DNA from: a phage
Sequence record: PX502252.1
DNA: 44,418 bases
Reading direction: 5' to 3' (one strand)
Notes under the pieces: generated by a model
What the model saw: only the letters and a program-made list of their open reading frames with translations
What the model was told of the DNA's origin: nothing
The model's database searches: none
Position numbers and translations under genes: made by a program
Shown here: piece by piece, positions 116-24,981 of the stretch
How the letters are laid out: each line of letters starts with the position of its first letter
How positions within the stretch are numbered: the stretch's first letter is position 1

Positions 116-138
116 ATTTACCGGACACTATAGGAGAG
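116..138 (+). promoter_or_regulatory. SP6-type phage RNAP promoter (ATTTACCGGACACTATAGGAGAG)
   Basis: Match to SP6-family promoter core GACACTATAG with conserved upstream ATTTAC; position analogous to T7 phi1.1A. Confidence 0.7.
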
Positions 139-481: not shown

Positions 482-2470
482 ATGGCTATTATTCAGAATG
501 TACCGTGTCCTGCCTGTCAAAAGAATGGACATGATGTTACCGGCAACCATCTCATGATCTTTGATGATGGTGCTGGCTATTGCAACCGTGGTCACTTCCA
601 CGATAACGGAAAGCCATACTACCATAAGCCCGAAGGTGGTATCGAGATAACCGAGTTGCCTATTACTGGCAATATCAAATATACACCTTCTCAGTTCAAA
701 GAGATGGAGAGGGAAGGGAAGATAAGCGACCCTAAGCTACGCGCCATCGCACTAGGTGGTATGCGTATGAAAGACCGTTGGGAGGTTATGAATGAGCAAG
801 AAAGGGCAGACCAAGAAGCAGAGTGGAAACTCGATGTTGAATGGTTCCTCACGCTTAAGCGTAAGAACCTTGTATCCCGACACATTCGCGGTGACATCGC
901 AGCACTATATGATGTGCGAGTGGGCCATGATGAAGATGGAAGAGTCAATCGTCACTATTATCCACGATTCGAGAAGGGTGAGCTAGTAGGCGCTAAGTGC
1001 CGTACATTACCTAAAGATTTTAAGTTTGGTCACTTAGGTAAACTCTTTGGTATGCAAGACCTTTTCGGGATGAATACTTTGTCTCACGTGTTAGACAAGG
1101 GAAGACGAAAGGATTGCTTACTTATCGTAGGCGGTGAACTTGATGCACTAGCAGCACAGCAGATGCTTCTTGATTCTGCCAAGGGTACTAAGTGGGAAGG
1201 CCAGCCTTATCATGTATGGTCTGTCAATAAGGGTGAGTCTTGCCTCGAAGAGATAGTGCAAAACCGTGAGCACATCGCCCAATTCAAGAAGATTATCTGG
1301 GGCTTCGATGGTGATGAGGTAGGGCAGAAGCAGAACCAGCAAGCGGCTCGCCTGTTCCCCGGCAAATCCTATATCCTTGAATACCCTTCTGGTTGCAAAG
1401 ATGCCAACAAGGCATTGATGGCTGGCAAGGCTAAAGAATTTGTGGATGCTTGGTTTAATGCAAAGTCATCTGATGAAGTCTTTGGTAGCCAGATTAAATC
1501 TATCGCATCTCAAAGAGATAAGCTCAAGGCTGCACGTCCAGAACAAGGGCTGTCATGGCCTTGGCCTAAGCTAAACAAGGTAACGCTGGGTATCCGTAAG
1601 AACCAGCTTATCATTATAGGTGCAGGCTCTGGTGTTGGTAAGACAGAGTTTCTCCGTGAAGTAGTTAAGCACCTCATTGAAGAACACGGTGAATCTGTAG
1701 GCATCATTTCTACAGAAGACCCGATGGTCAAGGTGTCCCGTGCTTTTATCGGCAAATGGATTGATAAGCGTATTGAGTTACCGCCGACCAACGACCCGAA
1801 AGAAGATGGATACCGTGAGGTATTCGACTATACAGAGGAAGAGGCTAATGCTGCCATTGATTATGTAGCTGATACAGGGAAGCTATTTGTGGCTGACCTA
1901 GAGGGTGATTATTCAATGGAGAAGGTAGAGCAAACTTGCCTAGAGTTTGAGGCTATGGGTATTTCTAATATCATCATTGATAACTTAACGGGGATTAAAT
2001 TAGATGAGCGTGCTTTTGGTGGGAAGGTTGGTGCACTTGATGAATGCGTCAAGCGGATTGGTACTATCAAAGACCGACACCCAGTTACTATATTCCTTGT
2101 ATCACACCTTACACGTCCTCCGGCAAACCGTACCCAACACGAAGAAGGTGGCGAGGTTATCCTTTCTGACTTCCGAGGCTCAGGAGCTATCGGATTCTGG
2201 GCATCTTACGCCTTGGGGATTGAGCGTAACACAAGAGCTGAAACGCTTGATGAAAGGACTACCACGTACATCTCATGTGTCAAAGATCGTGACCAAGGTA
2301 TCTACACAGGAACCAAAGTCATGCTTAAGGGTGACATTCAAACCGGACGTTTGAGAGAACCACAGGCTAGAACAAGGTCATTTGATACAGGTGAAGCAAG
2401 GCAACAAGAAGTACCGGATTTACCGGACACTATAGAAGAGACAACCTTTGATGATGAACAGGAGTTTTGA
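482..2470 (+). CDS. DNA primase/helicase (T7 gp4-like)
   Basis: N-terminal Cys4 zinc ribbon (CPACQ...CNRGH), helicase Walker A GAGSGVGKTEF, acidic C-terminus ending DDEQEF; 662 aa. Confidence 0.95.
   Translation: MAIIQNVPCPACQKNGHDVTGNHLMIFDDGAGYCNRGHFHDNGKPYYHKPEGGIEITELPITGNIKYTPSQFKEMEREGKISDPKLRAIALGGMRMKDRWEVMNEQERADQEAEWKLDVEWFLTLKRKNLVSRHIRGDIAALYDVRVGHDEDGRVNRHYYPRFEKGELVGAKCRTLPKDFKFGHLGKLFGMQDLFGMNTLSHVLDKGRRKDCLLIVGGELDALAAQQMLLDSAKGTKWEGQPYHVWSVNKGESCLEEIVQNREHIAQFKKIIWGFDGDEVGQKQNQQAARLFPGKSYILEYPSGCKDANKALMAGKAKEFVDAWFNAKSSDEVFGSQIKSIASQRDKLKAARPEQGLSWPWPKLNKVTLGIRKNQLIIIGAGSGVGKTEFLREVVKHLIEEHGESVGIISTEDPMVKVSRAFIGKWIDKRIELPPTNDPKEDGYREVFDYTEEEANAAIDYVADTGKLFVADLEGDYSMEKVEQTCLEFEAMGISNIIIDNLTGIKLDERAFGGKVGALDECVKRIGTIKDRHPVTIFLVSHLTRPPANRTQHEEGGEVILSDFRGSGAIGFWASYALGIERNTRAETLDERTTTYISCVKDRDQGIYTGTKVMLKGDIQTGRLREPQARTRSFDTGEARQQEVPDLPDTIEETTFDDEQEF
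2418..2440 (+). promoter_or_regulatory. SP6-type phage promoter embedded in 3' end of primase/helicase gene (ATTTACCGGACACTATAGAAGAG)
   Basis: Full consensus match; in-frame encodes LPDTIEE. Confidence 0.65.
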
Positions 2471-2631
2471 TGGAAATTATTAAACCAGTATTGAGTATCG
2501 GTATTGACATCCTATTCATGCTTATGATTGCGGACTATGCTGCACGATACGGATTCAAGAAAGCTGTGAAACTTATAGTTGCATCTGGTTTTATTATGTC
2601 AATGTTCTTTATTGTAACACGCCTTATCTAG
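2470..2631 (+). CDS. Small hydrophobic membrane protein (53 aa)
   Basis: ATG overlaps helicase TGA stop (ATGA coupling); MEIIKPVLSIGIDILFMLMIADYAARYGFKKAVKLIVASGFIMSMFFIVTRLI; two hydrophobic segments; below ORF-track cutoff. Confidence 0.45.
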   Translation: MEIIKPVLSIGIDILFMLMIADYAARYGFKKAVKLIVASGFIMSMFFIVTRLI

Positions 2632-2648
2632 TGTATTTATCAGGGCTT

Positions 2649-2664
2649 GTCTCACATGTGAGAC
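2649..2664. promoter_or_regulatory. 16-bp perfect palindrome GTCTCACATGTGAGAC (site 3)
   Basis: Exact copy; intergenic. Confidence 0.7.
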
Positions 2665-2703
2665 AGGCTCTTATTAAGTACATTAAATAACTGGAGGTTG
2701 ACT

Positions 2704-3318
2704 ATGTATAAATTAGTATTGAATGTAGGTGACTCTGTACGCAATATCAAGAAAGGCTCAAGTCGCTACCTTTGCCGTGGTATCGTAACCTTTGTAGGTG
2801 AGAATTTGTACTATGTAGAATATAGTAATGGTGCTAAACAGTATTACCATAAGAAGACAGCACATAACTTTCTTGAGAAGATTGTCGAATCACTCAATGA
2901 CAAAGTATGTAATGCATATATCAGTATTGCTAATAGCGTTACTGGTGGTACACGTACCACACTTAAGAAAGAGCGCCGCAATGTAATCACTGGTAAGACT
3001 CAAAGTGAAATGGTTAAGCAGTGCGGCACTGCATTAGGTGTTACACAGTTTAATACTCGTGCATTGGGTAAATCCACAGGGCAAGCTATGGTAAAGATTG
3101 GCGAAGCCATGATGCATCCAAATGTGCCTGTACGAATCATGGATGTTGACCATGCAATCACAGAACACGGTACGCAACGACGTGTAATTAATAAGCATTT
3201 TGCCGACACTATAGAAGGTATTATTCGTAAGCAAGGGTTGAAGGGTCTTCACATCTTAAATGGTGAAGAATTACTGTACCTGCCTATCGTTACTGAAGAA
3301 ACATACGTGAATATCTAA
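2704..3318 (+). CDS. Hypothetical protein (204 aa)
   Basis: ATG 6 nt after CTGGAGG; ORF-track frame 2698-3318; no motif recognised. Confidence 0.7.
   Translation: MYKLVLNVGDSVRNIKKGSSRYLCRGIVTFVGENLYYVEYSNGAKQYYHKKTAHNFLEKIVESLNDKVCNAYISIANSVTGGTRTTLKKERRNVITGKTQSEMVKQCGTALGVTQFNTRALGKSTGQAMVKIGEAMMHPNVPVRIMDVDHAITEHGTQRRVINKHFADTIEGIIRKQGLKGLHILNGEELLYLPIVTEETYVNI
3197..3219 (+). promoter_or_regulatory. Possible intragenic phage promoter (CATTTTGCCGACACTATAGAAGG)
   Basis: Core GACACTATAGAAGG exact, upstream region partially matching; in-frame encodes ADTIEG. Confidence 0.4.
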
Positions 3319-3328
3319 GGAGTTAATC

Positions 3329-3547
3329 ATGACTAAGGTATTAATTTATATGCGTGGACCTCATAAATGCTATGCAGTTGTAGCACCAAATGGTGTTAAG
3401 CCCTATAGTACTTCAAAAGGATTGGCATTAATAGGCGCTAGTAGTAGTGCAAGTTTCCAAATGGAACTTTTGGGTCGTTGGACTGAATGGCAATTCCGTG
3501 AGCGTTTTAAAGTCATTGGCAGCTTCATGGTGAAACATGCAGAATAA
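3329..3547 (+). CDS. Hypothetical protein (72 aa)
   Basis: ORF with AAGGAG 7 nt upstream of ATG. Confidence 0.55.
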   Translation: MTKVLIYMRGPHKCYAVVAPNGVKPYSTSKGLALIGASSSASFQMELLGRWTEWQFRERFKVIGSFMVKHAE

Positions 3548-3746
3548 ACATAGTCTTAAAATGCTCGATGGTCATGAAGACCTGCAAGCCAAGATTACTA
3601 ACCAAGCCTTCCTGTTCGCACAGTTAACTATGGCTGAGGCCAAGAAGAATAGTCTCACTCGTGAACAGGTTATCAAGGAGGCCACTTGGGAACCACACCA
3701 AGGTAAATACATGGGCCAGAAATTAACTGTAACACGCAGTCGATAA
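3537..3746 (+). CDS. Hypothetical protein (69 aa)
   Basis: ORF overlapping previous stop by 11 nt; weak SD. Confidence 0.45.
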   Translation: MQNKHSLKMLDGHEDLQAKITNQAFLFAQLTMAEAKKNSLTREQVIKEATWEPHQGKYMGQKLTVTRSR

Positions 3747-3755
3747 GTCAAGGGT

Positions 3756-3780
3756 TGTCTCACGCGTGAGACAGCCTTTT
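3756..3780 (+). terminator. Palindrome variant TGTCTCACGCGTGAGACA followed by GCCTTTT (site 4); hairpin plus T-run
   Basis: 18-bp perfect palindrome with centre CGCG instead of ATGT, then T-tract. Confidence 0.5.
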
Positions 3781-3897
3781 ATCATATTGATTGGAGGTGC
3801 ATTATGCCACGTGATTATGATTCTGATTGGGACTACTATGACTCAATGAATCCAAAACCCGAACGTTCAAATGATTACTACGAAACAGAGGCAATGT

Positions 3898-6408
3898 ATG
3901 AAAACTATTGATTGGAAGAAGGAAGCAGAAGGGCGAATCCTAGTGATGGATGCGGAAGCTAAAGGTCTGCTTGATGCTATCCGCTATGGTCATCGTGAAG
4001 ATGTACACATCATTTGCTGCATGGACTTGCTCACCACTGAGGAGTTCCTCTTCTTCGACCCATATGAGATGCGTGACCCTGAAGCAAGGGAACACCTGAA
4101 AGAGTGGGAAGGACATCAAGATGGAACCTTAGTTGACGGTGTTAACTTCCTGAAGCACTGTGAAGCTATTGTGTCGCAGAACTTCCTAGGATATGACGGT
4201 CTTCTCTTTGAGAAAGCATTCCCTGATATCTGGAAAGGCTTTAATTATACCGAGAAGCGCGGCAAGGGCAGACTCCGTGCCGACCTGTGCCCTATCCGTG
4301 TTGTCGACACGCTGGTGATGAGTCGCCTGTTAAACCCCGATAGACGCCTTCCTCCGCAAGCATATGCCAAAGGTATGGGTAACGTCGCCCCTCACTCAAT
4401 TGAGGCGCACGGCATCCGTATAGGTCGCTATAAACCGGAGAACGAGGACTGGTCTAAACTAACTGACCACATGGTTCACCGTGTACGTGAGGACGTGGCG
4501 ATTGGTCGTGACTTGTTCCTCTGGCTCTTTAACGGGGAATGGATGGAGCACAAACGCCGTGGCGTGAACAAACGTACTGGCCTAGGGATTGAGACAGCCT
4601 TCCACATGGAGTCCATTGTGGCGCTGGAGATGAGCCGTCAGGCAGAGCGTGGATTCCGTCTGGATATTGACAAAGCACTAGCGCGATGCGAAGAACTGGA
4701 CGCTAAGATTGATGAGACAGTCGCAGCGTTCCGTCCGCACATGCCTATGCGTATCAAGTCTAAACCTTTTAAACCGGAAGAAAAGAATGAAGTATGCCAA
4801 CGCGCAAATGAGTATGGAGCTAGCAACAATATACCTACTGTCCTGGACCCCTCACACTTTCTTCATGCCGAGAGACGAGGAGATCGCAAGACAGTATGGA
4901 GTGTCACTACTAAGTCTGGTGATTGGTCGGCTAGTGTCAAGAAAGACTTTCCTCACCTTAGAGGAAACCGTAATGACACGCCAAGCATCAAGTGGATTGG
5001 CGCTTACTCGCCTGTTACTTTCGAAGAGATTCCCTTGGGTAACAGGGATGCAGTTAAGCAAGTGCTCTATGATTATGGATGGAAAGGTGTTGAATTTAAC
5101 GATACCGAGCAAGCGCATCTCGATGAGCACGGAGTGTTACCCAAACCTTGGAGTGGTAAGATAAATGAAAAGTCCCTTACTTTATGGCAAGAAAGAGCCG
5201 CACGTGAAGGTAAAACAGTCCCTGATTGGTGCTTGGGTATCGCTGCATGGTACATACTCGTATCCCGTCGTGGTCAGATACTCAACCGGGGTGACGTTGA
5301 AGCCTTCAACGAGAAGGGAACGTGGCCCTCGCAGGCTGGTGTACGAAAGTGTCGCGGCCTTGTACCTGTAGCATTCAACAAGGAGTTAGGAATCAATGCG
5401 CAGCAATACTACGAGAGGTACGGATGCTGGCCTACGTCAGACAAGGATGACGGAGAGTGGCGTGTGCCAGGCAATGCTGTTACTATTGGCACTAATACGT
5501 TCCGTATGCGTCATCGTAACATTGTTAACATTCCTTCCCGTGGGTTGTATCCTTTACGTGATTTATTCATAGCTAGCAAGGGCAAAATGATACTTGGGTG
5601 TGATGGAGCAGGTCTTGAGCTACGCATCTTAGCCCATTTTATGGGTGATCCTGAGTATATTGATATAGTCTTGAATGGTGATATTCACTCGCACAACCAA
5701 GCAAAGGCTGGATTGCCCTTACGTGACACTGCGAAAACATTTATCTACGCTTTTCTCTACGGATCTGGCATACCAAATCTTGCCGCTGTATGTGGCATGA
5801 CTGAAGCACAGATGAAAGAATGTGTTGCTCGCTTTGAAGTAGAGTTACCTCATTTAGCTAAACTTAAGGAAGGGGTGGAATCCGCTGCTTCAACATTTGG
5901 ATATATGCACGCTGTAGATGGACGCTGGGGACGTGTACGCGTTAGTAATGGTGAGATTAAGATTCACACTTGTCTTAACGTACTGCTACAGATGACTGGC
6001 TCCCTCACTATGAAGTACTCAAAAGTGAAGGCTCTCGCTACTATGCGAAAAGAAGGTGTTGCCCTTGATGAGAATGGAAACCCTGCTATGCTTGTAGATT
6101 ATCATGATGAATGGCAGATGGAAGTACCTGAAGATGAAGTCTTAGAGATTCGCTACTCTATTCCTTCTTCCGAATGGAAAGAGGAAGAGAAACGTCAATA
6201 TCGTGATAGCGAAGGGCGCATGTGGTCTGCACCCAAGATTGTGGAAGGCAATCCTAAAGATGACGAAGAGGTAACAGTACGTCGCAGGTATCATCGTGCT
6301 GGTGAAATCTTAGCTGAATCTATTACGTGGGCTGGAGAATATCTCAAGCTACGTATCCGAATGGATGGCGAATATATGCTTGGATATTCATGGGCTGAAA
6401 CACACTGA
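3898..6408 (+). CDS. DNA polymerase, family A (T7 gp5-like)
   Basis: Exo I motif ILVMDAEAKGL; motif A GCDGAGLELRILAHF; motif B RDTAKTFIYAFLYGSG; motif C YHDEWQ. Start placed at ATG 3898 (AGAGG 7 nt upstream); in-frame ATG 3871 lacks SD. Confidence 0.93.
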   Translation: MKTIDWKKEAEGRILVMDAEAKGLLDAIRYGHREDVHIICCMDLLTTEEFLFFDPYEMRDPEAREHLKEWEGHQDGTLVDGVNFLKHCEAIVSQNFLGYDGLLFEKAFPDIWKGFNYTEKRGKGRLRADLCPIRVVDTLVMSRLLNPDRRLPPQAYAKGMGNVAPHSIEAHGIRIGRYKPENEDWSKLTDHMVHRVREDVAIGRDLFLWLFNGEWMEHKRRGVNKRTGLGIETAFHMESIVALEMSRQAERGFRLDIDKALARCEELDAKIDETVAAFRPHMPMRIKSKPFKPEEKNEVCQRANEYGASNNIPTVLDPSHFLHAERRGDRKTVWSVTTKSGDWSASVKKDFPHLRGNRNDTPSIKWIGAYSPVTFEEIPLGNRDAVKQVLYDYGWKGVEFNDTEQAHLDEHGVLPKPWSGKINEKSLTLWQERAAREGKTVPDWCLGIAAWYILVSRRGQILNRGDVEAFNEKGTWPSQAGVRKCRGLVPVAFNKELGINAQQYYERYGCWPTSDKDDGEWRVPGNAVTIGTNTFRMRHRNIVNIPSRGLYPLRDLFIASKGKMILGCDGAGLELRILAHFMGDPEYIDIVLNGDIHSHNQAKAGLPLRDTAKTFIYAFLYGSGIPNLAAVCGMTEAQMKECVARFEVELPHLAKLKEGVESAASTFGYMHAVDGRWGRVRVSNGEIKIHTCLNVLLQMTGSLTMKYSKVKALATMRKEGVALDENGNPAMLVDYHDEWQMEVPEDEVLEIRYSIPSSEWKEEEKRQYRDSEGRMWSAPKIVEGNPKDDEEVTVRRRYHRAGEILAESITWAGEYLKLRIRMDGEYMLGYSWAETH

Positions 6409-6417
6409 GTTATACTA

Positions 6418-6445
6418 AAGGTCACTTACGAGTGGCCTTTATGAA
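6418..6445 (+). terminator. Hairpin downstream of DNA polymerase (AAGGTCACT-TACG-AGTGGCCTT) with weak T-tract
   Basis: 9-bp stem with tetraloop; 3' arm AGTGGCCT resembles RNAP-downstream terminator. Confidence 0.35.
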
Positions 6446-6476
6446 TAACTTACTCCCACCTATTTTGTATAACAGG

Positions 6477-6499
6477 ATTTACTGGACACTATAGAAGGA
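6477..6499 (+). promoter_or_regulatory. SP6-type phage promoter (ATTTACTGGACACTATAGAAGGA)
   Basis: Consensus match, intergenic. Confidence 0.75.
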
Positions 6500-6562
6500 A
6501 AGCCTAGGTAATCTAGTTTATAAGGTAGTATAGGTAATTAAGTAAATATAGGAGGTATAAAT

Positions 6563-6940
6563 ATGTCTATGGTAACTACTCTGGTATTCGTAGCTCAATA
6601 CTTTCGTGGCTTGGCTAACAAGTTCAAGCAGAAAGCCATCAAGCATATTGAGAAACGTATTGCTGCAATTGAAGATGAGCAGGTTCAAGTAGAGGAGCAG
6701 CGTAGCTCTCAGATGGTTGACTTGCACAATCGACTGTATAAAGACCGTGATGAAATGCGTCACCGTCATGCGAAGGAAGTCGAAGACATGCTTAACCGCC
6801 ATGCGGAAGAACAAGCTAAACTGGAAACAACCTTCCATGAGAATAAGCGTAGCATTGCTCTAGTACATCAAGCTGCATCTGACAGTCTGAAGAAAGAGAT
6901 TGTTATGCTGGAAATTGAACTGGACAACCTAACTAAGTAA
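6563..6940 (+). CDS. Hypothetical protein (125 aa), charged helical/coiled-coil-like
   Basis: ATG with GGAGG upstream; K/E/R-rich. Confidence 0.65.
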   Translation: MSMVTTLVFVAQYFRGLANKFKQKAIKHIEKRIAAIEDEQVQVEEQRSSQMVDLHNRLYKDRDEMRHRHAKEVEDMLNRHAEEQAKLETTFHENKRSIALVHQAASDSLKKEIVMLEIELDNLTK

Positions 6941-6946
6941 GGAGCT

Positions 6947-7246
6947 ATGATGGAAGAAGTAATTCAAGCTAAACATGTAGGTATCATCTTTCGTGATTTA
7001 GAGCAGCGTAAAGTTGCAGGTCACACTCGTCTGGCTAAAGAAGAAGACACAGCAATCACTACTGTTGAACAAGCAGATGCCTATCGTGGGCCAGAGTTTA
7101 CTCAAGGTGAAACTTGTCACCAATTGAGCCTGTCGCTTTGTGATACTATTGCTAGTGTGAATGTTCAAGAAGTTGAAGACGGTGAGATTGTTAGTTACGT
7201 CTACCCTCTAGACACTATTGCACGCATTAAAGTAATTCATAAATAA
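6947..7246 (+). CDS. Hypothetical protein (99 aa)
   Basis: TAAGGAG upstream; start 6947 or 6950. Confidence 0.6.
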   Translation: MMEEVIQAKHVGIIFRDLEQRKVAGHTRLAKEEDTAITTVEQADAYRGPEFTQGETCHQLSLSLCDTIASVNVQEVEDGEIVSYVYPLDTIARIKVIHK

Positions 7247-7267
7247 TTACTGGACACTATAGAACAA
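7245..7267 (+). promoter_or_regulatory. SP6-type phage promoter variant (AATTACTGGACACTATAGAACAA) overlapping stop codon of upstream gene
   Basis: Core ACTGGACACTATAGAA conserved; downstream AAGAG replaced by ACAA. Confidence 0.6.
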
Positions 7268-7455
7268 TAGGACGTGGGTTTGTCAGAGACAGTAAATCCA
7301 AGGTGCTCAGTGAGCGTAAAGCCTAAGCACGTCCTATGATTGTAAAGTGTTGAACCTTATTGTGCATCTTGCACAACCCGATATAGTATCGGGCTTTCTA
7401 GTGAGTACATGCTTGTGCTCAGTACAAAGCTAACTGACAATAGGAGACTAAATAA

Positions 7456-8262
7456 ATGGCACGTTCTGAATTTAACTATGGTGCTGATGTAACTAAGACA
7501 GAGGGTAAGGTATTTAAGAACCCTGAAGTAGGTGATCATGAAGCAGTAATCTCTGGCATCATTCATGTTGGTTCCTTCCAAGACATTTTTAAGAAAGGCA
7601 ATACCACTGAAGTCAAGAAGCCAGCAAACTTTGTTCTTGTTAAGATTGTCCTGATGGGCGACGATGATAAGAACGAAGATGACTCTCGCATGGAACAATG
7701 GATGGCTGTGCCTCTGAAGTCTGGTGATAAGGCAACACTAACTAAGTTCCTGAATGCAGTTGACCCTAAAGAGTTGCTGGGTGGCTTCGATGATTTTATC
7801 GGTGAATGTCTGACTGCAACTATGGTTGGCTCTGGCGACAAGAATGATGATGGTACTTTCAAGTATGTTAACTGGAAAGGCTTTGGTGGTATGCCGGATA
7901 AGCTGAAGAAACTTGTCATTGCTCAGGTTGAAGAAGAGGGTCTGTCTATGACAGGTCATATTACCTTCGACAAGCTGACCAAAGAAATCCTTGATGATAT
8001 TCCTGCTAACTTGGTGCGTCAATACTTCCTGAACGAGACGCCTCGTGGCAAGAACCTGTCTGTTGCTGGCTCTCACGTAGAAGCAATCATCAAAGCTGCT
8101 CGTGAAGAAGACCCAGAGTGGAAGAAAGCTAAGAAGAAAGATGAAGAGGATGCCACTCCAGCTAATCGTAGATCTCTGGATACAGACGAGTCTGTTCCAC
8201 AGGAAGTACCTGAAGCGGAGGACAACCCTGCACCTGAAATGGATGAAGACGCGGAATACTAA
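7456..8262 (+). CDS. Hypothetical protein (268 aa) with acidic C-terminal tail ending in Tyr; candidate ssDNA-binding protein
   Basis: TAGGAGA upstream; C-terminus ...EAEDNPAPEMDEDAEY; function inferred only from tail and position among replication genes. Confidence 0.7.
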   Translation: MARSEFNYGADVTKTEGKVFKNPEVGDHEAVISGIIHVGSFQDIFKKGNTTEVKKPANFVLVKIVLMGDDDKNEDDSRMEQWMAVPLKSGDKATLTKFLNAVDPKELLGGFDDFIGECLTATMVGSGDKNDDGTFKYVNWKGFGGMPDKLKKLVIAQVEEEGLSMTGHITFDKLTKEILDDIPANLVRQYFLNETPRGKNLSVAGSHVEAIIKAAREEDPEWKKAKKKDEEDATPANRRSLDTDESVPQEVPEAEDNPAPEMDEDAEY

Positions 8263-8271
8263 GGAGGGCGG

Positions 8272-8490
8272 ATGAAAGTACAAATTGTAACTCTGCATTG
8301 CAAGAAAGGCATCACCACGCTTGGCGGTGGCACTTTCCACTCCTTCTCCGAAGGAGATACATACTCTGACCTGCACTACATCTGGCGCGATGGGCAGCAC
8401 GTGGTGAACTATAGTGACCCGGCTACGGGGAAACGCCACGGCGTATCGCTTCCGGCGCATGACATTGCTCAGGTGAACACAGTTTTATAA
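8272..8490 (+). CDS. Hypothetical protein (72 aa)
   Basis: Strong SD AAGGAGGG 4 nt upstream of ATG. Confidence 0.6.
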   Translation: MKVQIVTLHCKKGITTLGGGTFHSFSEGDTYSDLHYIWRDGQHVVNYSDPATGKRHGVSLPAHDIAQVNTVL

Positions 8491-8491
8491 A

Positions 8492-8507
8492 GTCTCACGT
8501 GTGAGAC
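8492..8507. promoter_or_regulatory. Palindrome variant GTCTCACGTGTGAGAC (site 5), 15 bp upstream of phage promoter
   Basis: Same arms GTCTCAC/GTGAGAC with centre GT. Confidence 0.65.
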
Positions 8508-8522
8508 AAATCGGTGTCCGGT

Positions 8523-8545
8523 ATTTACTGGACACTATAGAAGAG
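8523..8545 (+). promoter_or_regulatory. SP6-type phage promoter (ATTTACTGGACACTATAGAAGAG)
   Basis: Full consensus match. Confidence 0.8.
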
Positions 8546-8595
8546 AAGAATTTTAATCGGCGATAATGCCATAACCAACAAAAGGAGAATTTAAT

Positions 8596-8970
8596 ATGTT
8601 CAAGATTGAAACTATCGTAAACCGTGTTGTCAAAGGTGCTGCTCTGGTATCCGTTGAGTCTTTCATTATCGTCGATGAAGCTGATCAACTGGTAGCTGGT
8701 ACTAAGGCTTACGATACCCGTGAAGAAGCTCAGGCTAAGATTGACAGCATGGGTAACTTCGCTGCTGGTCTGGAGTTCGCTCGTGCTTGCTTCCCTGAGC
8801 AGGCTGACAAAGCTCAGATTGGTAAGGCTAATATCGTAGCTGAATATCTGGATTGGGTTGCTGCTGGTAAACCAGTGAAAGAAGTTAAGGCTGCTGAAGA
8901 AGCTGAAGCTCCAGCAGCAGAAGAAGTAGCTGCACCGGAAACTCCGGTAAGCGAAGAGGAAGAATTTTGA
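8596..8970 (+). CDS. Small acidic protein (124 aa) ending EEEEF; own promoter and terminator, likely abundant
   Basis: AAAGGAGA SD; flanked by promoter 8523 and terminator 9030; codon usage biased to common codons; C-terminal acidic tail with terminal Phe. Confidence 0.8.
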   Translation: MFKIETIVNRVVKGAALVSVESFIIVDEADQLVAGTKAYDTREEAQAKIDSMGNFAAGLEFARACFPEQADKAQIGKANIVAEYLDWVAAGKPVKEVKAAEEAEAPAAEEVAAPETPVSEEEEF

Positions 8971-10960: not shown

Positions 10961-11695
10961 TTGGCTATTGTACCATTGCCTGACTCGCCTCATCGAAGTG
11001 TACTGGTAATCCCTGATACTCATGCACCTTATGAGCACCCCGATACCTTAGAGTTCCTTGCAGCAGTGGCAGCACGTTATCGACCAGACACAGTGGTACA
11101 TCTTGGAGATGAGGCAGATAAACATGCCCTGTCATTCCATGATTCGGATCCAAATTTGGACAGTGCTGGCATGGAGTTAGAGAAAGCTCGTGTCTTCATG
11201 CACAAGTTGCACAAGATGTTTCCTGTGATGCGCCTGTGTCACTCTAATCACGGCTCTATGCACTTCCGTAAGGCAAGCGCCAAGGGTATTCCAGTGCAAT
11301 ATCTTCGTACCTACCGAGAAGTCTTCTTCCCGCAGGGAGGTGGCGACCAGTGGGATTGGCAGCATACGCATGTACTTGAGTTGCCGAATGGCGAACAGGT
11401 GGCATTCAAGCATCAACCTGCTGGCTCTGTCCTAGCAGATGCAGCGCATGAGCGTATGAATCTTGTGTGTGGTCACTTGCATGGTAAGATGTCTGTGGAG
11501 TACGCACGTAATACACATGAACAGTATTGGGCTGTGCAGGGTGGCTGCTTAATTGATGAGTCATCCCGTGCATTTGCCTATGGGCGTGAGTCTAAATACA
11601 AGCCAGCATTAGGTTGTGTGGTTATTCTGGAAGGTGTGCCTCATATTGTCCCGATGCAAACCAATAGCGACAACCGTTGGATTGGCAAGATTTAG
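10961..11695 (+). CDS. Calcineurin-like metallophosphoesterase; start codon uncertain (TTG at 10961, no in-frame ATG upstream)
   Basis: VLVIPDTHAPYEHPD (DxH), HLGDEAD (GDxxD), NHG, GHLH motifs; frame open from 10817 without ATG/GTG. Confidence 0.7.
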   Translation: MAIVPLPDSPHRSVLVIPDTHAPYEHPDTLEFLAAVAARYRPDTVVHLGDEADKHALSFHDSDPNLDSAGMELEKARVFMHKLHKMFPVMRLCHSNHGSMHFRKASAKGIPVQYLRTYREVFFPQGGGDQWDWQHTHVLELPNGEQVAFKHQPAGSVLADAAHERMNLVCGHLHGKMSVEYARNTHEQYWAVQGGCLIDESSRAFAYGRESKYKPALGCVVILEGVPHIVPMQTNSDNRWIGKI

Positions 11696-11712
11696 TTGAC
11701 ACTATAGAACAA
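11690..11712 (+). promoter_or_regulatory. SP6-type phage promoter variant (ATTTAGTTGACACTATAGAACAA)
   Basis: Core TGACACTATAGAA conserved; upstream ATTTAG as in SP6 itself. Confidence 0.6.
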
Positions 11713-13248: not shown

Positions 13249-13363
13249 TTTGAACGAAAAACAGCTTGAATTGTTAATAGAAGCCATTGAGCAATACTAT
13301 TACATGTGGGGCTATCAGTCAGAAGAATTAGACTCCTTATATTCACAACTAAAAGGAGGTTAA
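13238..13363 (+). CDS. Small protein (41 aa)
   Basis: Strong SD AAGGAGG 6 nt upstream; MFIDLNEKQLELLIEAIEQYYYMWGYQSEELDSLYSQLKGG; below ORF-track cutoff. Confidence 0.45.
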   Translation: MFIDLNEKQLELLIEAIEQYYYMWGYQSEELDSLYSQLKGG

Positions 13364-13365
13364 TT

Positions 13366-13563
13366 ATGTCTTTTGATTCTATGAAGGCAACTCGTGCTGT
13401 TGAGGTAGCAGAGGCCATCTTCGAAACTCTATCCTGTGGCATGGAAGTGCCATATACTTTACTGGCTGATGCAGAAGAACTTGGTCTTTCTGTAGAAGCT
13501 ATCCAAGAGAAGGTTGAGGAATTATATGGCACAGACGAAGAAGAAACCGACGATTTCATTTGA
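13366..13563 (+). CDS. Small acidic protein (65 aa)
   Basis: AAAGGAGG SD 5 nt upstream of ATG 13366 (ORF track started upstream at 13306). Confidence 0.6.
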   Translation: MSFDSMKATRAVEVAEAIFETLSCGMEVPYTLLADAEELGLSVEAIQEKVEELYGTDEEETDDFI

Positions 13564-16830: not shown

Positions 16831-16853
16831 ATTTACTGGACACTATAGAAGGG
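16831..16853 (+). promoter_or_regulatory. SP6-type phage promoter (ATTTACTGGACACTATAGAAGGG) upstream of major capsid gene
   Basis: Full consensus match. Confidence 0.8.
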
Positions 16854-22038: not shown

Positions 22039-24981
22039 ATGGCAATTGAACGTCAAGCTGTACAAGGTTTAGAAAGAGTACAGTCAAGGGGCGCGCCAAC
22101 ACCTATGTCTTTCACACCACGACAAGTGAGTATCTCAGGGGGCGCTGATGCCTCCGGTAGTAGATTTTTGGAAGACTTAGTAAACGCCGCAAGTAGTGTG
22201 GCTGATGTCACTACTGCTATCCTTAATCAGCAAGTAGAAGACGATAAGGTTCGCCAGATGGATAGGGCTTTGTCTGGCATGATGCCTTCTGAGGATGCCA
22301 CGGTAGGCGGTGCTCGTGCTCATATGCTGGTTAGTTTACAAAATGATGTAATCGCACAGACAACTGCGCTACAAGCAGAAGCACAGCGATTTCAAGGTAG
22401 TGACGAGGATTGGGAAAACTATGTAGTTCAATCTCGTAATGAGGTACAAAATAGATTATGGCAAAGTTATCCAGAGCTTCGTGGTGACAAAGATTCTATG
22501 AGGCTTGTCACTAACGCGTTCATGGAGCAGCAACCTAGAATTACTGCAACTAGAGCAGAGGCTAAACTTCGTCAAGAAGAAGAAGCACGAATGCAATCTA
22601 TGCAGTCTCGTATTATCATGGCTACAAGGGACGTAGCGCCAGATGCCACTGGTGCAGCTCTTATCCAGCTACAAAAAGAAGCACTGGCGATGGGTCTTAG
22701 TAAACCTGAGTTTGATCAAATGGTTGCTAAGATTGCATCTGAAAGAGCGGCAGTAGGAGATGATAGTCTTATTCAGGGAACCAAGGCATTGGTGGATGAT
22801 AAGGGTGTCTCTTTGTATGACCGTGTTGGTGCTTTGCAAACTGGAGAAATTCAAGCTAACAGAACTTGGGCTGCTCAGAATCAGGTTGCCCTCTTCGAGA
22901 AGAAAGATGCAGCTATAAAGGCATTCGATGCAGGGCAACTTACTCGCGAAGAGTTACTTCAGGTAATGCAGAATCACAATGAATTGACTGGTGGCACTGC
23001 TTGGTCTGATAGCGAGATCAAGGCTATCTTCGATAGGCAAGCTAAGGTTAATGCAGAGAAAGCAAAGCTCGAAGATCTTATTGCACGAGGTGAATCTGGG
23101 TCGCCTTTAGGCTTACAGGACATTAGTAAGGATGACAGAAAGACATATGCTGAAGCCTTAGTTAGTACCTACACTAAGCTGGCAGAAGATGAAATTGCTC
23201 GTACTGGTGCAACGGGAGAACAGGCTGAAGCTATTCGCGGTAGGTATGAGCAGATGCGTTATCTTAAATTGGGTCAACAGCTTATTGAAGACCCGATCAT
23301 TAAGGAAAGGTATTCGTCGCTTATGCAGCTATCCTCTGCCAACCTCAAGGATATGAATGTTGAACCTGAAGCACTGCAAACTATCATGCGAGCACGTGAT
23401 TCTATTCCAGAGGATGCACGTCGTGCTGTTATGGGAGACAAAGAATATGCCTTTGTTGAGAACTATGACTTAGCAACTCGCATGGGATATAACACAGGTC
23501 AAGCTATTGAGTTTGCACAGAATGCCTCTCGCGGCGAGAAATTACAAGGTTCTGTGCTCAAAGAACTTAATGATGATGTAGATGGAGTAGTTAGTGACAT
23601 TGCAGGAGGTAGCTGGCTCACTTTTGGTGATAACATGAGTGAAATGGGACGTGACATTATGATGGAGGAGGCAAGTACAATTGCTAGAGCAATGAAGGTT
23701 GCAGGCCATAATAATGACACTATTAAGCGTCACCTTAAATCCTATCTTACAAGCCAGTATACACAATTGTCAGAAGGTTTCTTTACTCAAGGTGTTCTTG
23801 TAAAAGGAGACATTCGTACATTAGGGGACACTATAGGAGTAAACCAAGGAGACGTCCCAATGGCTCTCCGTCAGTACCTAGATAATAACAAACAAGCTCT
23901 ACTAGATGCATCAGGTGGGTTAGAGGAAGGCGACCTGTATTTTGATGTAGATGCGCAGCGTGGCCTCTTTACTATACGTGCAGGCTCTGGTCGTGTGCCT
24001 GTTACACAGGCAATGCCTTTGTCTGAAATCAAAGGTCAATCCTTGCTTAAGCAACGGTATGATGCAGAGGTTAAAGCACGTGATGAAGGGCGTAAGAATT
24101 TTGAAGCACAACAAATGCGAATGTGGGGTGCAGGTGGATATCAAGCACAGCCACCTGCAAAGACTACAGCCAAAACTGTAGGCTCACGTGGTATTGCTGA
24201 CTTCTTAATGTCTCCCGCCTTTGCATCAGGTGAAAGATTGCCAGCAAACTTTGAGTTTGGCTATAAGAGGAATAATATGGACTTTTATAACTATGTGGCT
24301 AAGACTGAGAATAGCGCCAATGTAGGGTTCGACCGAGTAGCGGGAGTTTATACACCATACAAAGATGCACATGGTCAGTCTGTAGGTTATGGTCACTTCC
24401 TTACTGCTGAAGAGAAGAAGAACGGATACATTATGATTGGTACAGAGAAAGTGCCATTCACTCCGGGGCAATCTCAATTAACACCAGAACGTGCCATGCG
24501 CCTCCTACAGCAAGACTTGAAGAGCCATGTGCCAAGCACTTCAGGGTGGGCTGTTCCCTTCGAAGAGATGCACCCAGGTGTTCAGCGTGGCCTTATGGAT
24601 TTGTCCTATAACTTAGGTAAAGGAGGCATCCAGAATGCTCCTAAGGCATATGCTGCGTTTAAGGCTGGCAAGTTTACTGATGGCTTTATCGAGATGTTAT
24701 CTACTGCATCTACTGAAGGTAAACGTAGCACTGGGTTGTTGGTTCGTAGGGCAGAAGCATATAATCTTGCCCAGAGCGGAGGTGCTGTTCCTAAGATTAG
24801 TGAAGTAGAGACACGAGCAGATGGGTCCATGTATGTGAAGTTTGCAGGTCAGATGTCAGAGGCTTTCGTAAGTAAATCAATCTATAATCAGATTGGTAAG
24901 GATGGGTGGATGCAAGTGTACCCTCCAAAACAAGGTGCGCTTGCACCTAACACTCAGGTTGGTAGAATCAAACTAAGCTAG
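22039..24981 (+). CDS. Internal virion protein with C-terminal T4-lysozyme-like (GH24) muramidase domain
   Basis: 980 aa; segment E...YTPYKDAHGQSVGYGHFLT matches the E/D/T catalytic region pattern of T4 lysozyme (YKDTEGYYTIGIGHLLT). Confidence 0.8.
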   Translation: MAIERQAVQGLERVQSRGAPTPMSFTPRQVSISGGADASGSRFLEDLVNAASSVADVTTAILNQQVEDDKVRQMDRALSGMMPSEDATVGGARAHMLVSLQNDVIAQTTALQAEAQRFQGSDEDWENYVVQSRNEVQNRLWQSYPELRGDKDSMRLVTNAFMEQQPRITATRAEAKLRQEEEARMQSMQSRIIMATRDVAPDATGAALIQLQKEALAMGLSKPEFDQMVAKIASERAAVGDDSLIQGTKALVDDKGVSLYDRVGALQTGEIQANRTWAAQNQVALFEKKDAAIKAFDAGQLTREELLQVMQNHNELTGGTAWSDSEIKAIFDRQAKVNAEKAKLEDLIARGESGSPLGLQDISKDDRKTYAEALVSTYTKLAEDEIARTGATGEQAEAIRGRYEQMRYLKLGQQLIEDPIIKERYSSLMQLSSANLKDMNVEPEALQTIMRARDSIPEDARRAVMGDKEYAFVENYDLATRMGYNTGQAIEFAQNASRGEKLQGSVLKELNDDVDGVVSDIAGGSWLTFGDNMSEMGRDIMMEEASTIARAMKVAGHNNDTIKRHLKSYLTSQYTQLSEGFFTQGVLVKGDIRTLGDTIGVNQGDVPMALRQYLDNNKQALLDASGGLEEGDLYFDVDAQRGLFTIRAGSGRVPVTQAMPLSEIKGQSLLKQRYDAEVKARDEGRKNFEAQQMRMWGAGGYQAQPPAKTTAKTVGSRGIADFLMSPAFASGERLPANFEFGYKRNNMDFYNYVAKTENSANVGFDRVAGVYTPYKDAHGQSVGYGHFLTAEEKKNGYIMIGTEKVPFTPGQSQLTPERAMRLLQQDLKSHVPSTSGWAVPFEEMHPGVQRGLMDLSYNLGKGGIQNAPKAYAAFKAGKFTDGFIEMLSTASTEGKRSTGLLVRRAEAYNLAQSGGAVPKISEVETRADGSMYVKFAGQMSEAFVSKSIYNQIGKDGWMQVYPPKQGALAPNTQVGRIKLS

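What the first reader, a model, noticed from the sequence alone, without database searches (positions are those of the whole stretch)
2442..8970. Three replication-region proteins end in an acidic tail with a terminal aromatic residue
Primase/helicase ends ...TFDDEQEF, the 268-aa protein ends ...EMDEDAEY and the 124-aa protein ends ...PVSEEEEF. In T7 the acidic C-terminal Phe tails of gp4 and gp2.5 dock onto the DNA polymerase. The 268-aa and 124-aa proteins are therefore candidate replisome partners (one likely the SSB), though neither has a recognisable OB-fold signature by eye.
Basis: inference. Interest (0 to 1): 0.6.

Follow-up and report, generated by a model that had tools for sequence, protein, structure and literature searches.

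The report
Three replisome proteins share one tail
In this K1-5/SP6-like phage, the primase-helicase, an unannotated protein predicted to be the phage's missing single-stranded-DNA-binding protein, and a small protein of unknown fold all end in the same short acidic tail with a final aromatic residue, which suggests they take turns on one docking site, as the helicase and ssDNA-binding protein do on the polymerase in phage T7.

Summary
The window is a complete Vectrevirus genome (K1-5/SP6-like). Exactly three real genes end in an acidic tail with a terminal aromatic residue:
- primase/helicase, ending ...TFDDEQEF
- the 268-aa protein, ending ...EMDEDAEY
- the 124-aa protein, ending ...PVSEEEEF

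Chance expectation is about 0.03 genes per genome. The trio recurs, in the same gene order, in about 50 related loci from ten or more genera.

The tails share more than acidity. Each has a hydrophobic residue at -6, D or S at -5, E at -1 and F or Y at the end. T7 tails end D-F instead.

The 268-aa protein has no Pfam or PDB sequence match and no profile similarity to T7 gp2.5. Its AlphaFold model is a confident OB fold; the best structural matches are PrgE, RPA and bacterial SSBs. No other SSB is annotated in the genome, so it is very probably the phage SSB. More than 200 GenBank records call it "hypothetical".

The 124-aa protein is not an OB fold. It is a beta-hairpin plus three helices with no convincing structural match, it has no T7 counterpart, and its role is open.

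Docking of the tails onto the polymerase is inferred by analogy and was not tested. The basic patch that T7 uses for this is absent from this polymerase.

The parts
482..2470 (+). Primase/helicase (662 aa), a T7 gp4 homologue
   Evidence: Pfam DnaB_C 9.5e-15 plus Toprim_2; PHROG 239 at 2.7e-187. BLASTP to T7 gp4A: 25% identity, 4e-29.
2444..2467 (+). Helicase C-terminal tail TFDDEQEF. The motif is F(-6) D(-5) ... E(-1) F(0).
   Evidence: 40 of 42 distinct homologous helicases end in F or Y, and 33 have E at -1.
2421..2438 (+). Phage RNA-polymerase promoter embedded in the helicase ORF. It encodes L-P-D-T-I-E-E of the tail.
   Evidence: One mismatch to the window's promoter consensus; 11 sites found against 0.07 expected. 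Reading frame checked.
3871..6408 (+). Family A DNA polymerase (845 aa), a T7 gp5 homologue. It is the inferred receptor of the tails.
   Evidence: Pfam DNA_pol_A 3.3e-21. BLASTP to T7 gp5: 33% identity, 6e-29.
4732..4983 (+). Polymerase thumb insertion (residues ~288-371) at the position of the T7 thioredoxin-binding domain. It carries conserved basic residues and is a candidate docking surface (inference).
   Evidence: MAFFT alignment of 8 SP6-like polymerases with T7 gp5.
5923..5961 (+). Polymerase segment RWGRVRVSNGEIK (residues 685-697). It is a basic cluster next to where the T7 front basic patch would lie, and that patch itself is deleted. A second candidate docking surface (inference).
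   Evidence: T7 patch residues taken from PMC12339929.
7248..7265 (+). Phage promoter upstream of the 268-aa gene
   Evidence: One mismatch to the consensus.
7456..8262 (+). 268-aa protein (K1-5 gp16, SP6 gp18; PHROG 862). Predicted OB-fold ssDNA-binding protein.
   Evidence: AGGAGA Shine-Dalgarno upstream. N-terminus conserved in 42 homologues.
7456..7512 (+). Residues 1-19: conserved (M1 A2 R3 F6 G9 A10 G17 V19) but predicted disordered. A candidate protomer-protomer contact segment, by analogy with the PrgE N-terminal tail (inference).
7513..7890 (+). Residues 20-145: OB-fold core (beta strands 26-66 and 80-86, helix 94-102, strands 118-144)
7897..8130 (+). Residues 148-225: helical subdomain of unknown role
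   Evidence: pLDDT about 90.
8140..8259 (+). Residues 229-268: disordered acidic linker ending in A-P-E-M-D-E-D-A-E-Y
   Evidence: pLDDT below 50. Tail profile in 41 homologues: P(-8) 38, M/L(-6) 41, D(-5) 36, E(-1) 40, Y/F(0) 41.
8526..8543 (+). Phage promoter (perfect consensus) 53 nt upstream of the 124-aa gene
8596..8970 (+). 124-aa protein (K1-5 gp18, SP6 gp20; PHROG 4429). Third tail-bearing protein, function unknown.
8596..8892 (+). Residues 1-99: globular domain with a beta-hairpin (3-26) and three helices (42-89). Conserved K-A-N-x-V-A-x-Y-L-x-W helix.
8893..8967 (+). Residues 100-124: disordered Ala/Glu/Pro-rich linker ending in P-V-S-E-E-E-E-F
   Evidence: pLDDT below 50. In 91 close homologues: V/L/M(-6) 91, S(-5) 90, E(-1) 91, F(0) 91. 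17 of 26 representatives at 50% identity end in F.

Best explanation
The replication module of this K1-5/SP6-like phage encodes three proteins that each carry a disordered acidic C-terminal extension. Each extension ends in the same short linear motif: hydrophobic(-6), D/S(-5), x-x-x, E(-1), F/Y-COOH.

(1) The primase-helicase is a gp4 homologue, and its tail is the counterpart of the gp4 tail.

(2) The 268-aa protein is the phage's own ssDNA-binding protein. It has a conserved N-terminal segment, an OB-fold core, a helical subdomain, a linker of about 40 disordered acidic residues and the terminal motif. In function it is the analogue of T7 gp2.5. By sequence it is not a detectable member of the gp2.5 family. 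It does belong to a family remotely related to the Neisseria prophage NGO0469 proteins.

(3) The 124-aa protein is a small, non-OB alpha/beta protein that presents the same motif on a linker of about 25 residues.

Most likely mechanism (inferred, not shown): the three tails compete for, or take turns on, the same basic, carboxylate-and-aromatic-reading pocket. That pocket is most probably on the phage DNA polymerase, either in the conserved basic thumb insertion or in the RWGRVR cluster. It could also be the DNA-binding cleft of the OB-fold protein. Under this model the helicase couples to the polymerase, the SSB is handed over or displaced at the fork, and the 124-aa protein acts as a third client that modulates or competes with these contacts.
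For: Shown:
- The tails are present, and the composition-based chance expectation is about 0.03 per genome.
- The tail trio is conserved in about 50 related loci from at least 10 genera: K1-5, SP6, Proteus, Pectobacterium, Klebsiella, Erwinia, Vibrio, Pseudomonas, Marinomonas and ECBP5-like phages. In the eight annotated genomes examined the gene order is also conserved: polymerase, OB-fold gene, small gene, ~120-aa gene, exonuclease.
- The motif is shared beyond acidity and differs from T7. The gp2.5 family has D at -1 in 118 of 118 sequences and G at -2. The SP6-like SSB family has E at -1 in 40 of 41 and M/L at -6 in 41 of 41.
- The 268-aa protein is predicted to be an OB fold with SSB-like structural neighbours.
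- No other SSB is annotated in the closest genome or in K1-5 or SP6.
- Both genes have their own phage promoter and a strong Shine-Dalgarno sequence, consistent with abundant expression.
- The 268-aa and 124-aa families have almost identical distributions in the phage database, 216 and 213 records from the same genera.

From the literature: in T7 the acidic tails of gp2.5 and gp4 bind basic patches of the polymerase, and the terminal Phe of gp2.5 is essential (PMC12339929 and the Ghosh 2009 and Marintcheva 2009 papers cited there).

Inferred: the polymerase has a conserved basic-rich insertion at the position of the T7 thioredoxin-binding domain.
Against: - No binding or docking was tested. 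The tools offered no complex prediction.
- The T7 front basic patch (K587-R591) is deleted in this polymerase group, so the T7 analogy cannot be transferred residue for residue.
- Part of the helicase tail (TIEE) is also constrained by an embedded promoter.
- Some family members lack a strictly terminal aromatic residue: SP6 helicase ends ...QEFNG, the Nerthus proteins end ...EFGE and ...TFE, and the 124-like protein of metagenomic locus L013 ends ...DAEEA.
- The globular domain of the 124-aa protein gives no functional clue.
Confidence: 0.55

Rival explanations
1. The 124-aa protein is not a replisome component. It is a decoy or mimic whose SSB-like acidic-aromatic tail targets host proteins that read SSB C-termini (such as nucleases, helicases or PriA), or targets a host defence system. 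The resemblance to the helicase and SSB tails is then mimicry of a generic 'SSB tip'.
For: - It has no T7 counterpart.
- It is not an OB fold and has no recognisable replication fold.
- Its core is mildly acidic.
- It sits just upstream of the exonuclease gene, roughly where T7 places small host-interference genes (5.5-5.9) before gene 6.
- One distant relative (L013) has lost the terminal aromatic residue, as expected for an accessory rather than a core function.
Against: - Its tail matches the phage's own motif (V/L at -6, S at -5, E at -1). It does not match the E. coli SSB tip ...DDDIPF (the latter from my own knowledge).
- It is conserved and syntenic across hosts as different as Escherichia, Vibrio, Pseudomonas and Marinomonas. 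That fits a phage-internal partner better than a host-specific target.
- In the one clade where it ends in Y (L039-L041), the helicase and the SSB-like protein also end in Y.
Confidence: 0.2
2. The tails act mainly in cis. They serve as electrostatic shields or autoinhibitory pseudo-substrates for each protein's own DNA-binding surface, or as solubility tags. There is no shared docking partner.
For: In T7 gp2.5 the tail regulates the protein's own ssDNA binding (the delta-21C mutant binds ssDNA more tightly; PMC12339929) and is reported to compete with ssDNA for the binding cleft (Marintcheva 2008, from my own knowledge). The tails here are predicted to be disordered.
Against: - The 124-aa protein has no predicted DNA-binding fold to shield.
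- An invariant terminal aromatic residue, E at -1 and a hydrophobic residue at -6 are features of a specific peptide-pocket interaction, not of a charge cloud.
- The same motif on three unrelated folds argues for one reader.
Confidence: 0.12
3. The 268-aa protein is a replication initiator or primase-like protein, as the name of its nearest curated family suggests (NCBIfam NF046043, 'phage replication initiation protein, NGO0469 family'). It would not be the SSB.
For: 32 of 42 family members match NF046043. The best E-values are 6.5e-12 among those 42 and 2.3e-13 for the ECBP5 protein, scanned separately.
Against: - All scores are below the curated cut-off: 18.9 bits for the window protein and 50.1 at best, against 75 required.
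- The family name traces to 2007 BLAST hits of 26-32% identity over 87-109 residues, with no experiment behind it (PMC1931599).
- The fold is an OB fold with SSB, RPA and PrgE neighbours.
- The phage already has a primase-helicase.
- T7-like phages initiate replication from RNAP transcripts (established knowledge).
Confidence: 0.08
4. The three similar tails are a coincidence of composition.
For: Acidic disordered C-termini are common in phage proteins. Two other ORFs in the window have acidic ends without a terminal aromatic residue (13306-13563 ends ...TDDFI and 39977-40345 ends ...EEEEE).
Against: P is about 6e-6 under a composition null. None of 447 control segments shows the pattern. The tails are conserved down to about 30% identity in three families.
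Confidence: 0.01

Closest known systems
T7 gp2.5 (ssDNA-binding and annealing protein; Pfam PF21265)
   Same: - Phage-encoded protein of similar size (232 vs 268 aa) in the replication module of an Autographiviridae phage.
- OB-fold core followed by a disordered acidic tail that ends in an aromatic residue.
- The gene has its own phage promoter upstream (phi2.5 in T7; 7248-7265 here).
   Different: - No sequence or profile similarity: hhalign probability 0.2% and no PF21265 hit.
- gp2.5 is not among the top structural hits.
- The protein has an extra C-terminal helical subdomain and a conserved N-terminal segment.
- The tail motif differs...[ML]-D-x-x-x-E-[YF] here against ...D-D-D-G-D-F in T7.
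T7 gp4 primase-helicase C-terminal tail
   Same: The protein is homologous. Both tails are acidic and end in Phe: T7 ...SNDTDF, here ...DDEQEF. T7 gp4 also has an aromatic residue (W) at -6, matching F at -6 here.
   Different: The penultimate residue is E, not D. Part of the tail-coding sequence doubles as a phage promoter. The T7 front basic patch that receives the tail is absent from this polymerase.
PrgE of plasmid pCF10 (PDB 8S4S, 8S4T) and viral-type monomeric OB-fold SSBs
   Different: Only 12-16% identity and moderate scores. PrgE is 144 aa, has no long acidic aromatic-ended tail, and binds dsDNA as well as ssDNA.
NCBIfam NF046043 (NGO0469 family, named 'phage replication initiation protein')
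   Same: Statistically significant remote homology over the OB region and part of the helical domain.
   Different: All scores are below the curated cut-off. The family consists of prophage proteins of about 171-228 aa whose name is not backed by experiment. I could not retrieve their C-termini.
E. coli SSB C-terminal tip (...DDDIPF) and the T4 gp32 acidic C-terminal domain
   Same: Same principle: a disordered acidic tail acts as a hub that recruits several replication and repair proteins. In E. coli SSB the terminal Phe and its carboxylate sit in a basic-rimmed hydrophobic pocket (my own knowledge).
   Different: In those systems one SSB tail serves many partners. Here three different proteins carry one motif, implying one reader with several clients. 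The sequence details also differ (E-F/Y against I-P-F).

Membership tests
T7 gp2.5-like SSB (Pfam PF21265) | Sequence match to the family model or profile | tested here: not met
   No Pfam hit for the window protein or for any of 42 homologues at E<=1. hhalign of the 42-sequence profile against gp2.5 and against a 27-sequence gp2.5 alignment gave probability 0.1-0.2%.
T7 gp2.5-like SSB (Pfam PF21265) | OB-fold core | tested here: met
T7 gp2.5-like SSB (Pfam PF21265) | Acidic C-terminal tail ending in an aromatic residue | tested here: met
   ...EMDEDAEY in the window; 41 of 41 full-length homologues end [EV]-[YF]. The motif differs from D-G-D-F.
T7 gp2.5-like SSB (Pfam PF21265) | ssDNA binding or annealing, and tail-dependent binding to the polymerase and helicase | not testable with these tools
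   Needs biochemistry or complex prediction.
Bacterial-type SSB (Pfam SSB, PF00436) | Sequence match to the family model | tested here: not met
   No hit. PDB sequence and profile searches were empty. Bacterial SSBs appear only as weak Foldseek hits (E 0.2-0.5).
NCBIfam NF046043 (NGO0469 family) | Score at or above the curated cut-off (75 bits) | tested here: not met
   18.9 bits for the window protein; 50.1 bits for the best relative (ECBP5).
NCBIfam NF046043 (NGO0469 family) | Significant homology to the model | tested here: met
   32 of 42 members match, best 6.5e-12; the ECBP5 protein reaches 2.3e-13 across profile positions 5-171.
PHROG 862 (unknown function) | Match of the 268-aa protein to the profile | tested here: met
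   E 9.1e-61 over residues 10-257; 42 of 42 homologues match.
PHROG 4429 (unknown function) | Match of the 124-aa protein to the profile | tested here: met
   E 1.7e-57, full length.
OB-fold SSB (for the 124-aa protein) | OB-fold core | tested here: not met
T7 gp4-like primase-helicase | Toprim primase and DnaB-type helicase domains, homology to gp4, and an acidic Phe-terminated tail | tested here: met
   Pfam DnaB_C and Toprim_2; PHROG 239; BLASTP 4e-29 to gp4A; tail ...DDEQEF.
T7-type tail docking on the DNA polymerase | Front basic patch K587/K589/R590/R591 in the polymerase | tested here: not met
   The patch falls in a 9-residue gap in the BLASTP alignment and in a MAFFT alignment of 8 SP6-like polymerases. 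A different basic cluster (RWGR[IV]R...) lies next to it.
T7-type tail docking on the DNA polymerase | Basic-residue-bearing insertion in the thumb (the thioredoxin-binding domain in T7) | tested here: inconclusive
   A longer, conserved, basic-rich insertion occupies the same position. Its structure, any thioredoxin dependence and any tail binding are unknown.

The most novel reading that the evidence does not exclude
SP6-like, Colwellvirinae and Gajwadongvirus phages run a three-client version of the T7 tail-docking system. The helicase and SSB are joined by a dedicated small protein (the 124-aa family) that carries the same C-terminal motif and competes for the same pocket on the replisome. 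It might act as a polymerase-exchange or recycling factor, as a timer that releases SSB or helicase contacts, or as a phage-encoded substitute for a host processivity factor. The SSB itself is a lineage unrelated in sequence to gp2.5 that arrived at the same tail solution independently.
Probability: 0.2. Interest if true: 0.7.

Novelty: new variant of a known kind. Interest (0 to 1): 0.45.

Why it matters
- It fills an annotation gap. The family is labelled 'hypothetical' or 'unknown function' in every phage-database row inspected (105 of 216-224 matching records; one further row reads 'HNH homing endonuclease') and in PHROG 862. It can now be proposed as the SSB of K1-5/SP6-like phages, several of which are used in therapy and capsule-typing work.
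- The nearest curated bacterial family (NF046043) carries a doubtful 'replication initiation' name. These results suggest it may need revisiting.
- The acidic-aromatic tail logic of the T7 replisome extends to a distant branch of Autographiviridae with a different motif, a different SSB family and a polymerase that lacks the T7 docking patch. That makes this group a natural comparison system for studying how replisome contacts evolve.
- It points to one small conserved protein as a candidate third partner, testable with simple peptide-competition and terminal-residue deletion experiments.

Tried and rejected
- **Sequence searches for the 268-aa and 124-aa proteins.** Pfam, NCBIfam and PDB sequence and profile searches returned nothing apart from the sub-threshold NF046043 match.
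- **Comparison with T7 proteins.** hhalign of both family profiles against T7 gp2.5, against a gp2.5 family alignment and against 35 T7 proteins (genes 0.3-7.7) gave no probability above 2.2%.
- **Reaching the Neisseria NGO0469 relatives.** Two scans of bacterial genomes found nothing confirmable by tblastn, so their tails and gene neighbourhoods stayed out of reach. Scans of viral contigs and of the phage database returned only ~42-47 kb podovirus genomes of the same general type.
- **Literature.** Searches for an SSB assignment in SP6/K1-5-like phages found nothing in the held library. The original SP6 genome paper is not held, so an earlier remark there cannot be excluded.
- **Co-variation of F versus Y among the three tails.** The only suggestive case is one Klebsiella-phage-like clade with Y/Y/Y (L039-L041). 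That is too few independent events to count.

Full report
**What the window is.** The 44,418-bp window is a complete genome of a K1-5/K1E-like phage (Vectrevirus, Molineuxvirinae, Autographiviridae). It is about 94% identical to Escherichia phage vB_EcoP_KAW1A4500 and about 91% to K1-5 and K1E over the region of interest. All genes lie on the + strand. The finding spans the replication module:
- primase/helicase, 482-2470
- DNA polymerase, 3871-6408
- a 268-aa ORF, 7456-8262 (K1-5 gp16, SP6 gp18)
- a 124-aa ORF, 8596-8970 (K1-5 gp18, SP6 gp20)
- the 5'-3' exonuclease that follows

**Checking the observation.** The three C-termini read exactly as reported...TFDDEQEF...EMDEDAEY and ...PVSEEEEF.
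- Among all + strand ORFs of at least 40 aa, only these three real genes and one spurious overlapping 50-aa ORF combine at least 4 acidic residues in the last 8 with a terminal aromatic residue.
- None of 447 open segments on the gene-free minus strand does.
- A composition-based null gives about 6e-4 per protein, 0.03 expected per genome and P(>=3) of about 6e-6. That null is generous to the finding, because disordered acidic ends are commoner than i.i.d. composition suggests.

Conservation is therefore the more persuasive test.
- In the large protein database, all 41 full-length relatives of the 268-aa protein (down to 33% identity) end [E/V]-[Y/F]. All 120 listed relatives of the 124-aa protein end EEEF.
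- Among cluster representatives at 50% identity, 17 of 26 relatives of the 124-aa protein still end in F, and several more have F within the last three residues.
- I collected about 55 related loci. They came from GenBank phages (K1-5, SP6, Erwinia phiEa100, Vibrio BD5 and AS51, Pseudomonas Nerthus, Marinomonas CPP1m, Escherichia ECBP5), from one metagenomic contig and from IMG/VR.
- In these loci a terminal aromatic residue is present in 40 of 42 distinct helicases, 46 of 49 OB-fold homologues (49 of 49 within the last three residues) and 36 of 42 homologues of the 124-aa protein (40 of 42 within the last three).
- In the eight annotated genomes examined, the gene order polymerase, ~260-aa gene, small gene, ~120-aa gene, exonuclease is conserved throughout.
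- T7 has only two such tails, on gp2.5 and gp4.

**The tails share a motif, not just charge.** In this window they align as follows:

| Protein | -6 | -5 | -4 | -3 | -2 | -1 | 0 |
|---|---|---|---|---|---|---|---|
| primase/helicase | F | D | D | E | Q | E | F |
| 268-aa protein | M | D | E | D | A | E | Y |
| 124-aa protein | V | S | E | E | E | E | F |

The common pattern is hydrophobic at -6, D or S at -5, E at -1 and an aromatic residue at the C-terminus.
- 268-aa family: -6 is M or L in 41 of 41, -5 is D in 36 of 41, -1 is E in 40 of 41, and P at -8 in 38 of 41.
- Close relatives of the 124-aa protein: -6 is V, L or M in 91 of 91, and -5 is S in 90 of 91.
- T7 gp2.5 family: D at -1 in 118 of 118, usually G at -2, and no hydrophobic preference at -6.

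So each lineage has its own flavour of tail (E-F/Y here, D-F in T7), shared among its tail-bearing proteins. That is what one expects if the tails are read by a common, lineage-specific pocket.

One caveat applies to the helicase. Its residues L-P-D-T-I-E-E are encoded by a phage promoter (TACCGGACACTATAGAAG, 2421-2438) embedded in the ORF. Conservation of 'TIEE' therefore reflects a dual constraint. The terminal F-D-D-E-Q-E-F lies downstream of the promoter core.

**The 268-aa protein.**
- Sequence methods are silent. There is no Pfam family for it or for any of 42 homologues. PHROG 862 is 'unknown function'. There is no PDB sequence or profile hit. There is no profile-profile similarity to T7 gp2.5 or to a 27-member gp2.5 alignment (probability 0.1-0.2%).
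- An AlphaFold2 model built from the 42-sequence alignment is confident in the core: pLDDT 81-93 for residues ~20-225 and pTM 0.70. It is disordered at residues 1-19 and 229-268.
- The core topology is strands 26-66 and 80-86, helix 94-102, then strands 118-129 and 135-144, followed by a helical subdomain (148-225).
- Foldseek against the PDB ranks PrgE of pCF10 first (E 3.5e-4). Yeast and human RPA subunits follow, and then B. subtilis SsbA, PriB and other bacterial SSBs.
- PrgE is an OB-fold DNA-binding protein with extra helices. [quoted passage not shown]
- The 268-aa protein has a strongly conserved yet predicted-disordered N-terminus (M1 A2 R3 F6 G9 A10 G17 V19 F20). That segment could play the same protomer-contact role; this is inference.
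- No other SSB is annotated in the closest relative, in K1-5 or in SP6.
- The gene has a phage promoter upstream (7248-7265) and an AGGAGA ribosome-binding site. T7 gene 2.5 likewise has its own promoter.
- Of the 216-224 matching phage records, all but one of the 105 rows inspected are labelled 'hypothetical', 'unknown function' or unannotated; the exception reads 'HNH homing endonuclease'.

I conclude, with about 75% confidence, that this is the phage's SSB. It is a functional analogue of gp2.5, but it is not demonstrably a member of the gp2.5 family.

**An unexpected relative.**
- 32 of the 42 homologues, and several more distant syntenic proteins, match NCBIfam NF046043, 'phage replication initiation protein, NGO0469 family'. 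E-values reach 6.5e-12 and 2.3e-13, and the ECBP5 protein covers the whole 171-position profile.
- All scores fall below the curated cut-off of 75 bits. The window protein scores 18.9 bits.
- The homology is real but remote.
- The family name goes back to 2007 BLAST hits of 26-32% identity to a nanovirus Rep and a phage primase, with no experiment behind it (PMC1931599). I therefore treat 'replication initiator' as a weak rival reading.
- It is possible that the NGO0469 proteins are themselves prophage SSBs. I could not retrieve them to look at their C-termini.

**The 124-aa protein.**
- It has no Pfam, NCBIfam or PDB hits. PHROG 4429 is 'unknown function'.
- The family is small: 26 clusters at 50% identity among 1.8 billion representatives.
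- In the phage database it has essentially the same distribution as the 268-aa family, 213 against 216 records with the same genus counts.
- The AF2 model has core pLDDT 85-92. It shows a beta-hairpin (3-26) and three helices (42-89), with a conserved K-A-N-x-V-A-x-Y-L-x-W helix, followed by a disordered Ala/Glu/Pro-rich linker of about 25 residues and the terminal motif.
- It is not an OB fold and therefore not a second SSB.
- It has its own perfect-consensus promoter (8526-8543) and a strong ribosome-binding site.
- No T7 protein of genes 0.3-7.7 resembles it.
- One distant metagenomic relative has lost the aromatic end (...DAEEA). A few others carry one or two residues after the F.

**Where might the tails dock?**
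- In T7 the tails of gp4 and gp2.5 bind basic patches on the polymerase, including the front basic patch K587/K589/R590/R591. The terminal Phe of gp2.5 is essential (PMC12339929 and references there).
- The polymerase here is a gp5 homologue (33% identity in palm and fingers). The front patch falls in a gap that is conserved across eight SP6-like polymerases. Next to the gap lies a different basic cluster, D-G-R-W-G-R-[IV]-R-(R/K)..., with a six-residue insertion.
- At the position of the T7 thioredoxin-binding domain these polymerases carry a longer, well conserved insertion with several conserved Arg and Lys residues: RPHMPMRIKSKPFKP..., AERRGDRKTVW..., SVKKDFPHLRGN.

These are candidate receptors only, and nothing here tests them. 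The DNA-binding cleft of the OB-fold protein is another possible reader, by analogy with gp2.5, whose own tail modulates its ssDNA binding.

**Most likely mechanism.**
- *Shown:* three proteins of the replication module carry a conserved, lineage-specific C-terminal acidic-aromatic motif on disordered linkers. One of them is a gp4 homologue, one is a predicted OB-fold protein, and one has an unclassified small fold.
- *Inferred:* the OB-fold protein coats lagging-strand ssDNA. Its tail and the helicase tail dock on the polymerase and so couple unwinding, synthesis and SSB displacement, as in T7. The 124-aa protein uses the same motif to occupy the same site as a third client, either as a modulator or as a competitor.

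Rival readings are given separately: the 124-aa protein as a host-directed SSB-tail mimic, tails acting only in cis, and the 268-aa protein as an initiator.

**Novelty and score.**
- The principle, an acidic aromatic-ended tail used as a replisome docking peptide, is textbook T7 biology. The helicase tail is simply homologous.
- New here are three things: the assignment of an unannotated, gp2.5-unrelated OB-fold family as the SSB of a large and practically important phage group; the distinct shared motif; and a conserved third tail-bearing protein with no T7 counterpart.
- I could not find an earlier statement of this in the searchable literature.
- I rate it a new variant of a known kind, of moderate interest (0.45).

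Noticed in passing
window 2421-2438 (inside the primase/helicase ORF 482-2470): A phage RNA-polymerase promoter (TACCGGACACTATAGAAG, one mismatch to the consensus) lies inside the helicase coding sequence and encodes L-P-D-T-I-E-E of the acidic tail. The 'TIEE' or 'IEQ' segment is conserved in Vectrevirus and Zindervirus helicase tails but is absent from Colwellvirinae tails. This looks like a dual coding and promoter constraint.
   Followed up: partly
window 119-136, 2421-2438, 6480-6497, 7248-7265, 8526-8543, 11693-11710, 16834-16851, 23822-23839, 30093-30110, 32198-32215, 34549-34566: Eleven + strand matches to the SP6/K1-5-type promoter core, against 0.07 expected by chance. They give a promoter map of the genome. 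Two of them sit directly upstream of the 268-aa and 124-aa genes.
   Followed up: partly
window 6947-7246 (99 aa) and 8272-8490 (72 aa): Two small ORFs flank the OB-fold gene. They share PHROG 8057 similarity and a C-terminal Y-x-Y-P-x-D-x-[IL]-A-[RQ]-[IV] motif. A homologous small gene follows the SSB-like gene in Pseudomonas phage Nerthus, Vibrio phage BD5 and metagenomic locus L013. Function unknown; possibly part of the same module.
   Followed up: no
window 13306-13563 (85 aa) and 39977-40345 (122 aa): Two further proteins have strongly acidic C-termini without a strictly terminal aromatic residue: ...EEETDDFI (aromatic residue penultimate) and ...[11 protein letters not shown].
   Followed up: no
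L004 (SP6, AY288927.2) 2257-4242, compared with L025 and L026: The SP6 reference primase/helicase ends ...NTQEFNG, whereas other SP6-like contigs end ...NTQEF. The two extra residues may be a strain difference or a sequencing or annotation issue at the stop codon.
   Followed up: no
window 6563-6940 (125 aa): RefSeq and PHROG 7450 call the homologue a 'polysaccharide chain length determinant protein'. The sequence looks like a short coiled coil with only sub-threshold Pfam hits, so the name seems doubtful.
   Followed up: no
window 7456-8262 and relatives (for example L009 10001-10765): The 268-aa family is remotely homologous to NCBIfam NF046043 ('phage replication initiation protein, NGO0469 family'). 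That name rests on weak 2007 BLAST similarities. The Neisseria prophage family may in fact consist of OB-fold ssDNA-binding proteins.
   Followed up: partly
L039-L041 and L058-L060 (IMG/VR contigs, Klebsiella-phage-like clade): In this clade all three tails end in Y (...EESEY, ...GAEY, ...EAEEY). Elsewhere the 124-aa family ends in F. This is a possible co-variation of the terminal residue, but it represents a single evolutionary event.
   Followed up: partly
L005 (Erwinia phage phiEa100) 5703-8699: The DNA polymerase gene is split into two parts, with an intervening small ORF and an HNH endonuclease gene just downstream. This looks like an intron- or intein-like or homing-endonuclease-associated interruption in a relative.
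   Followed up: no
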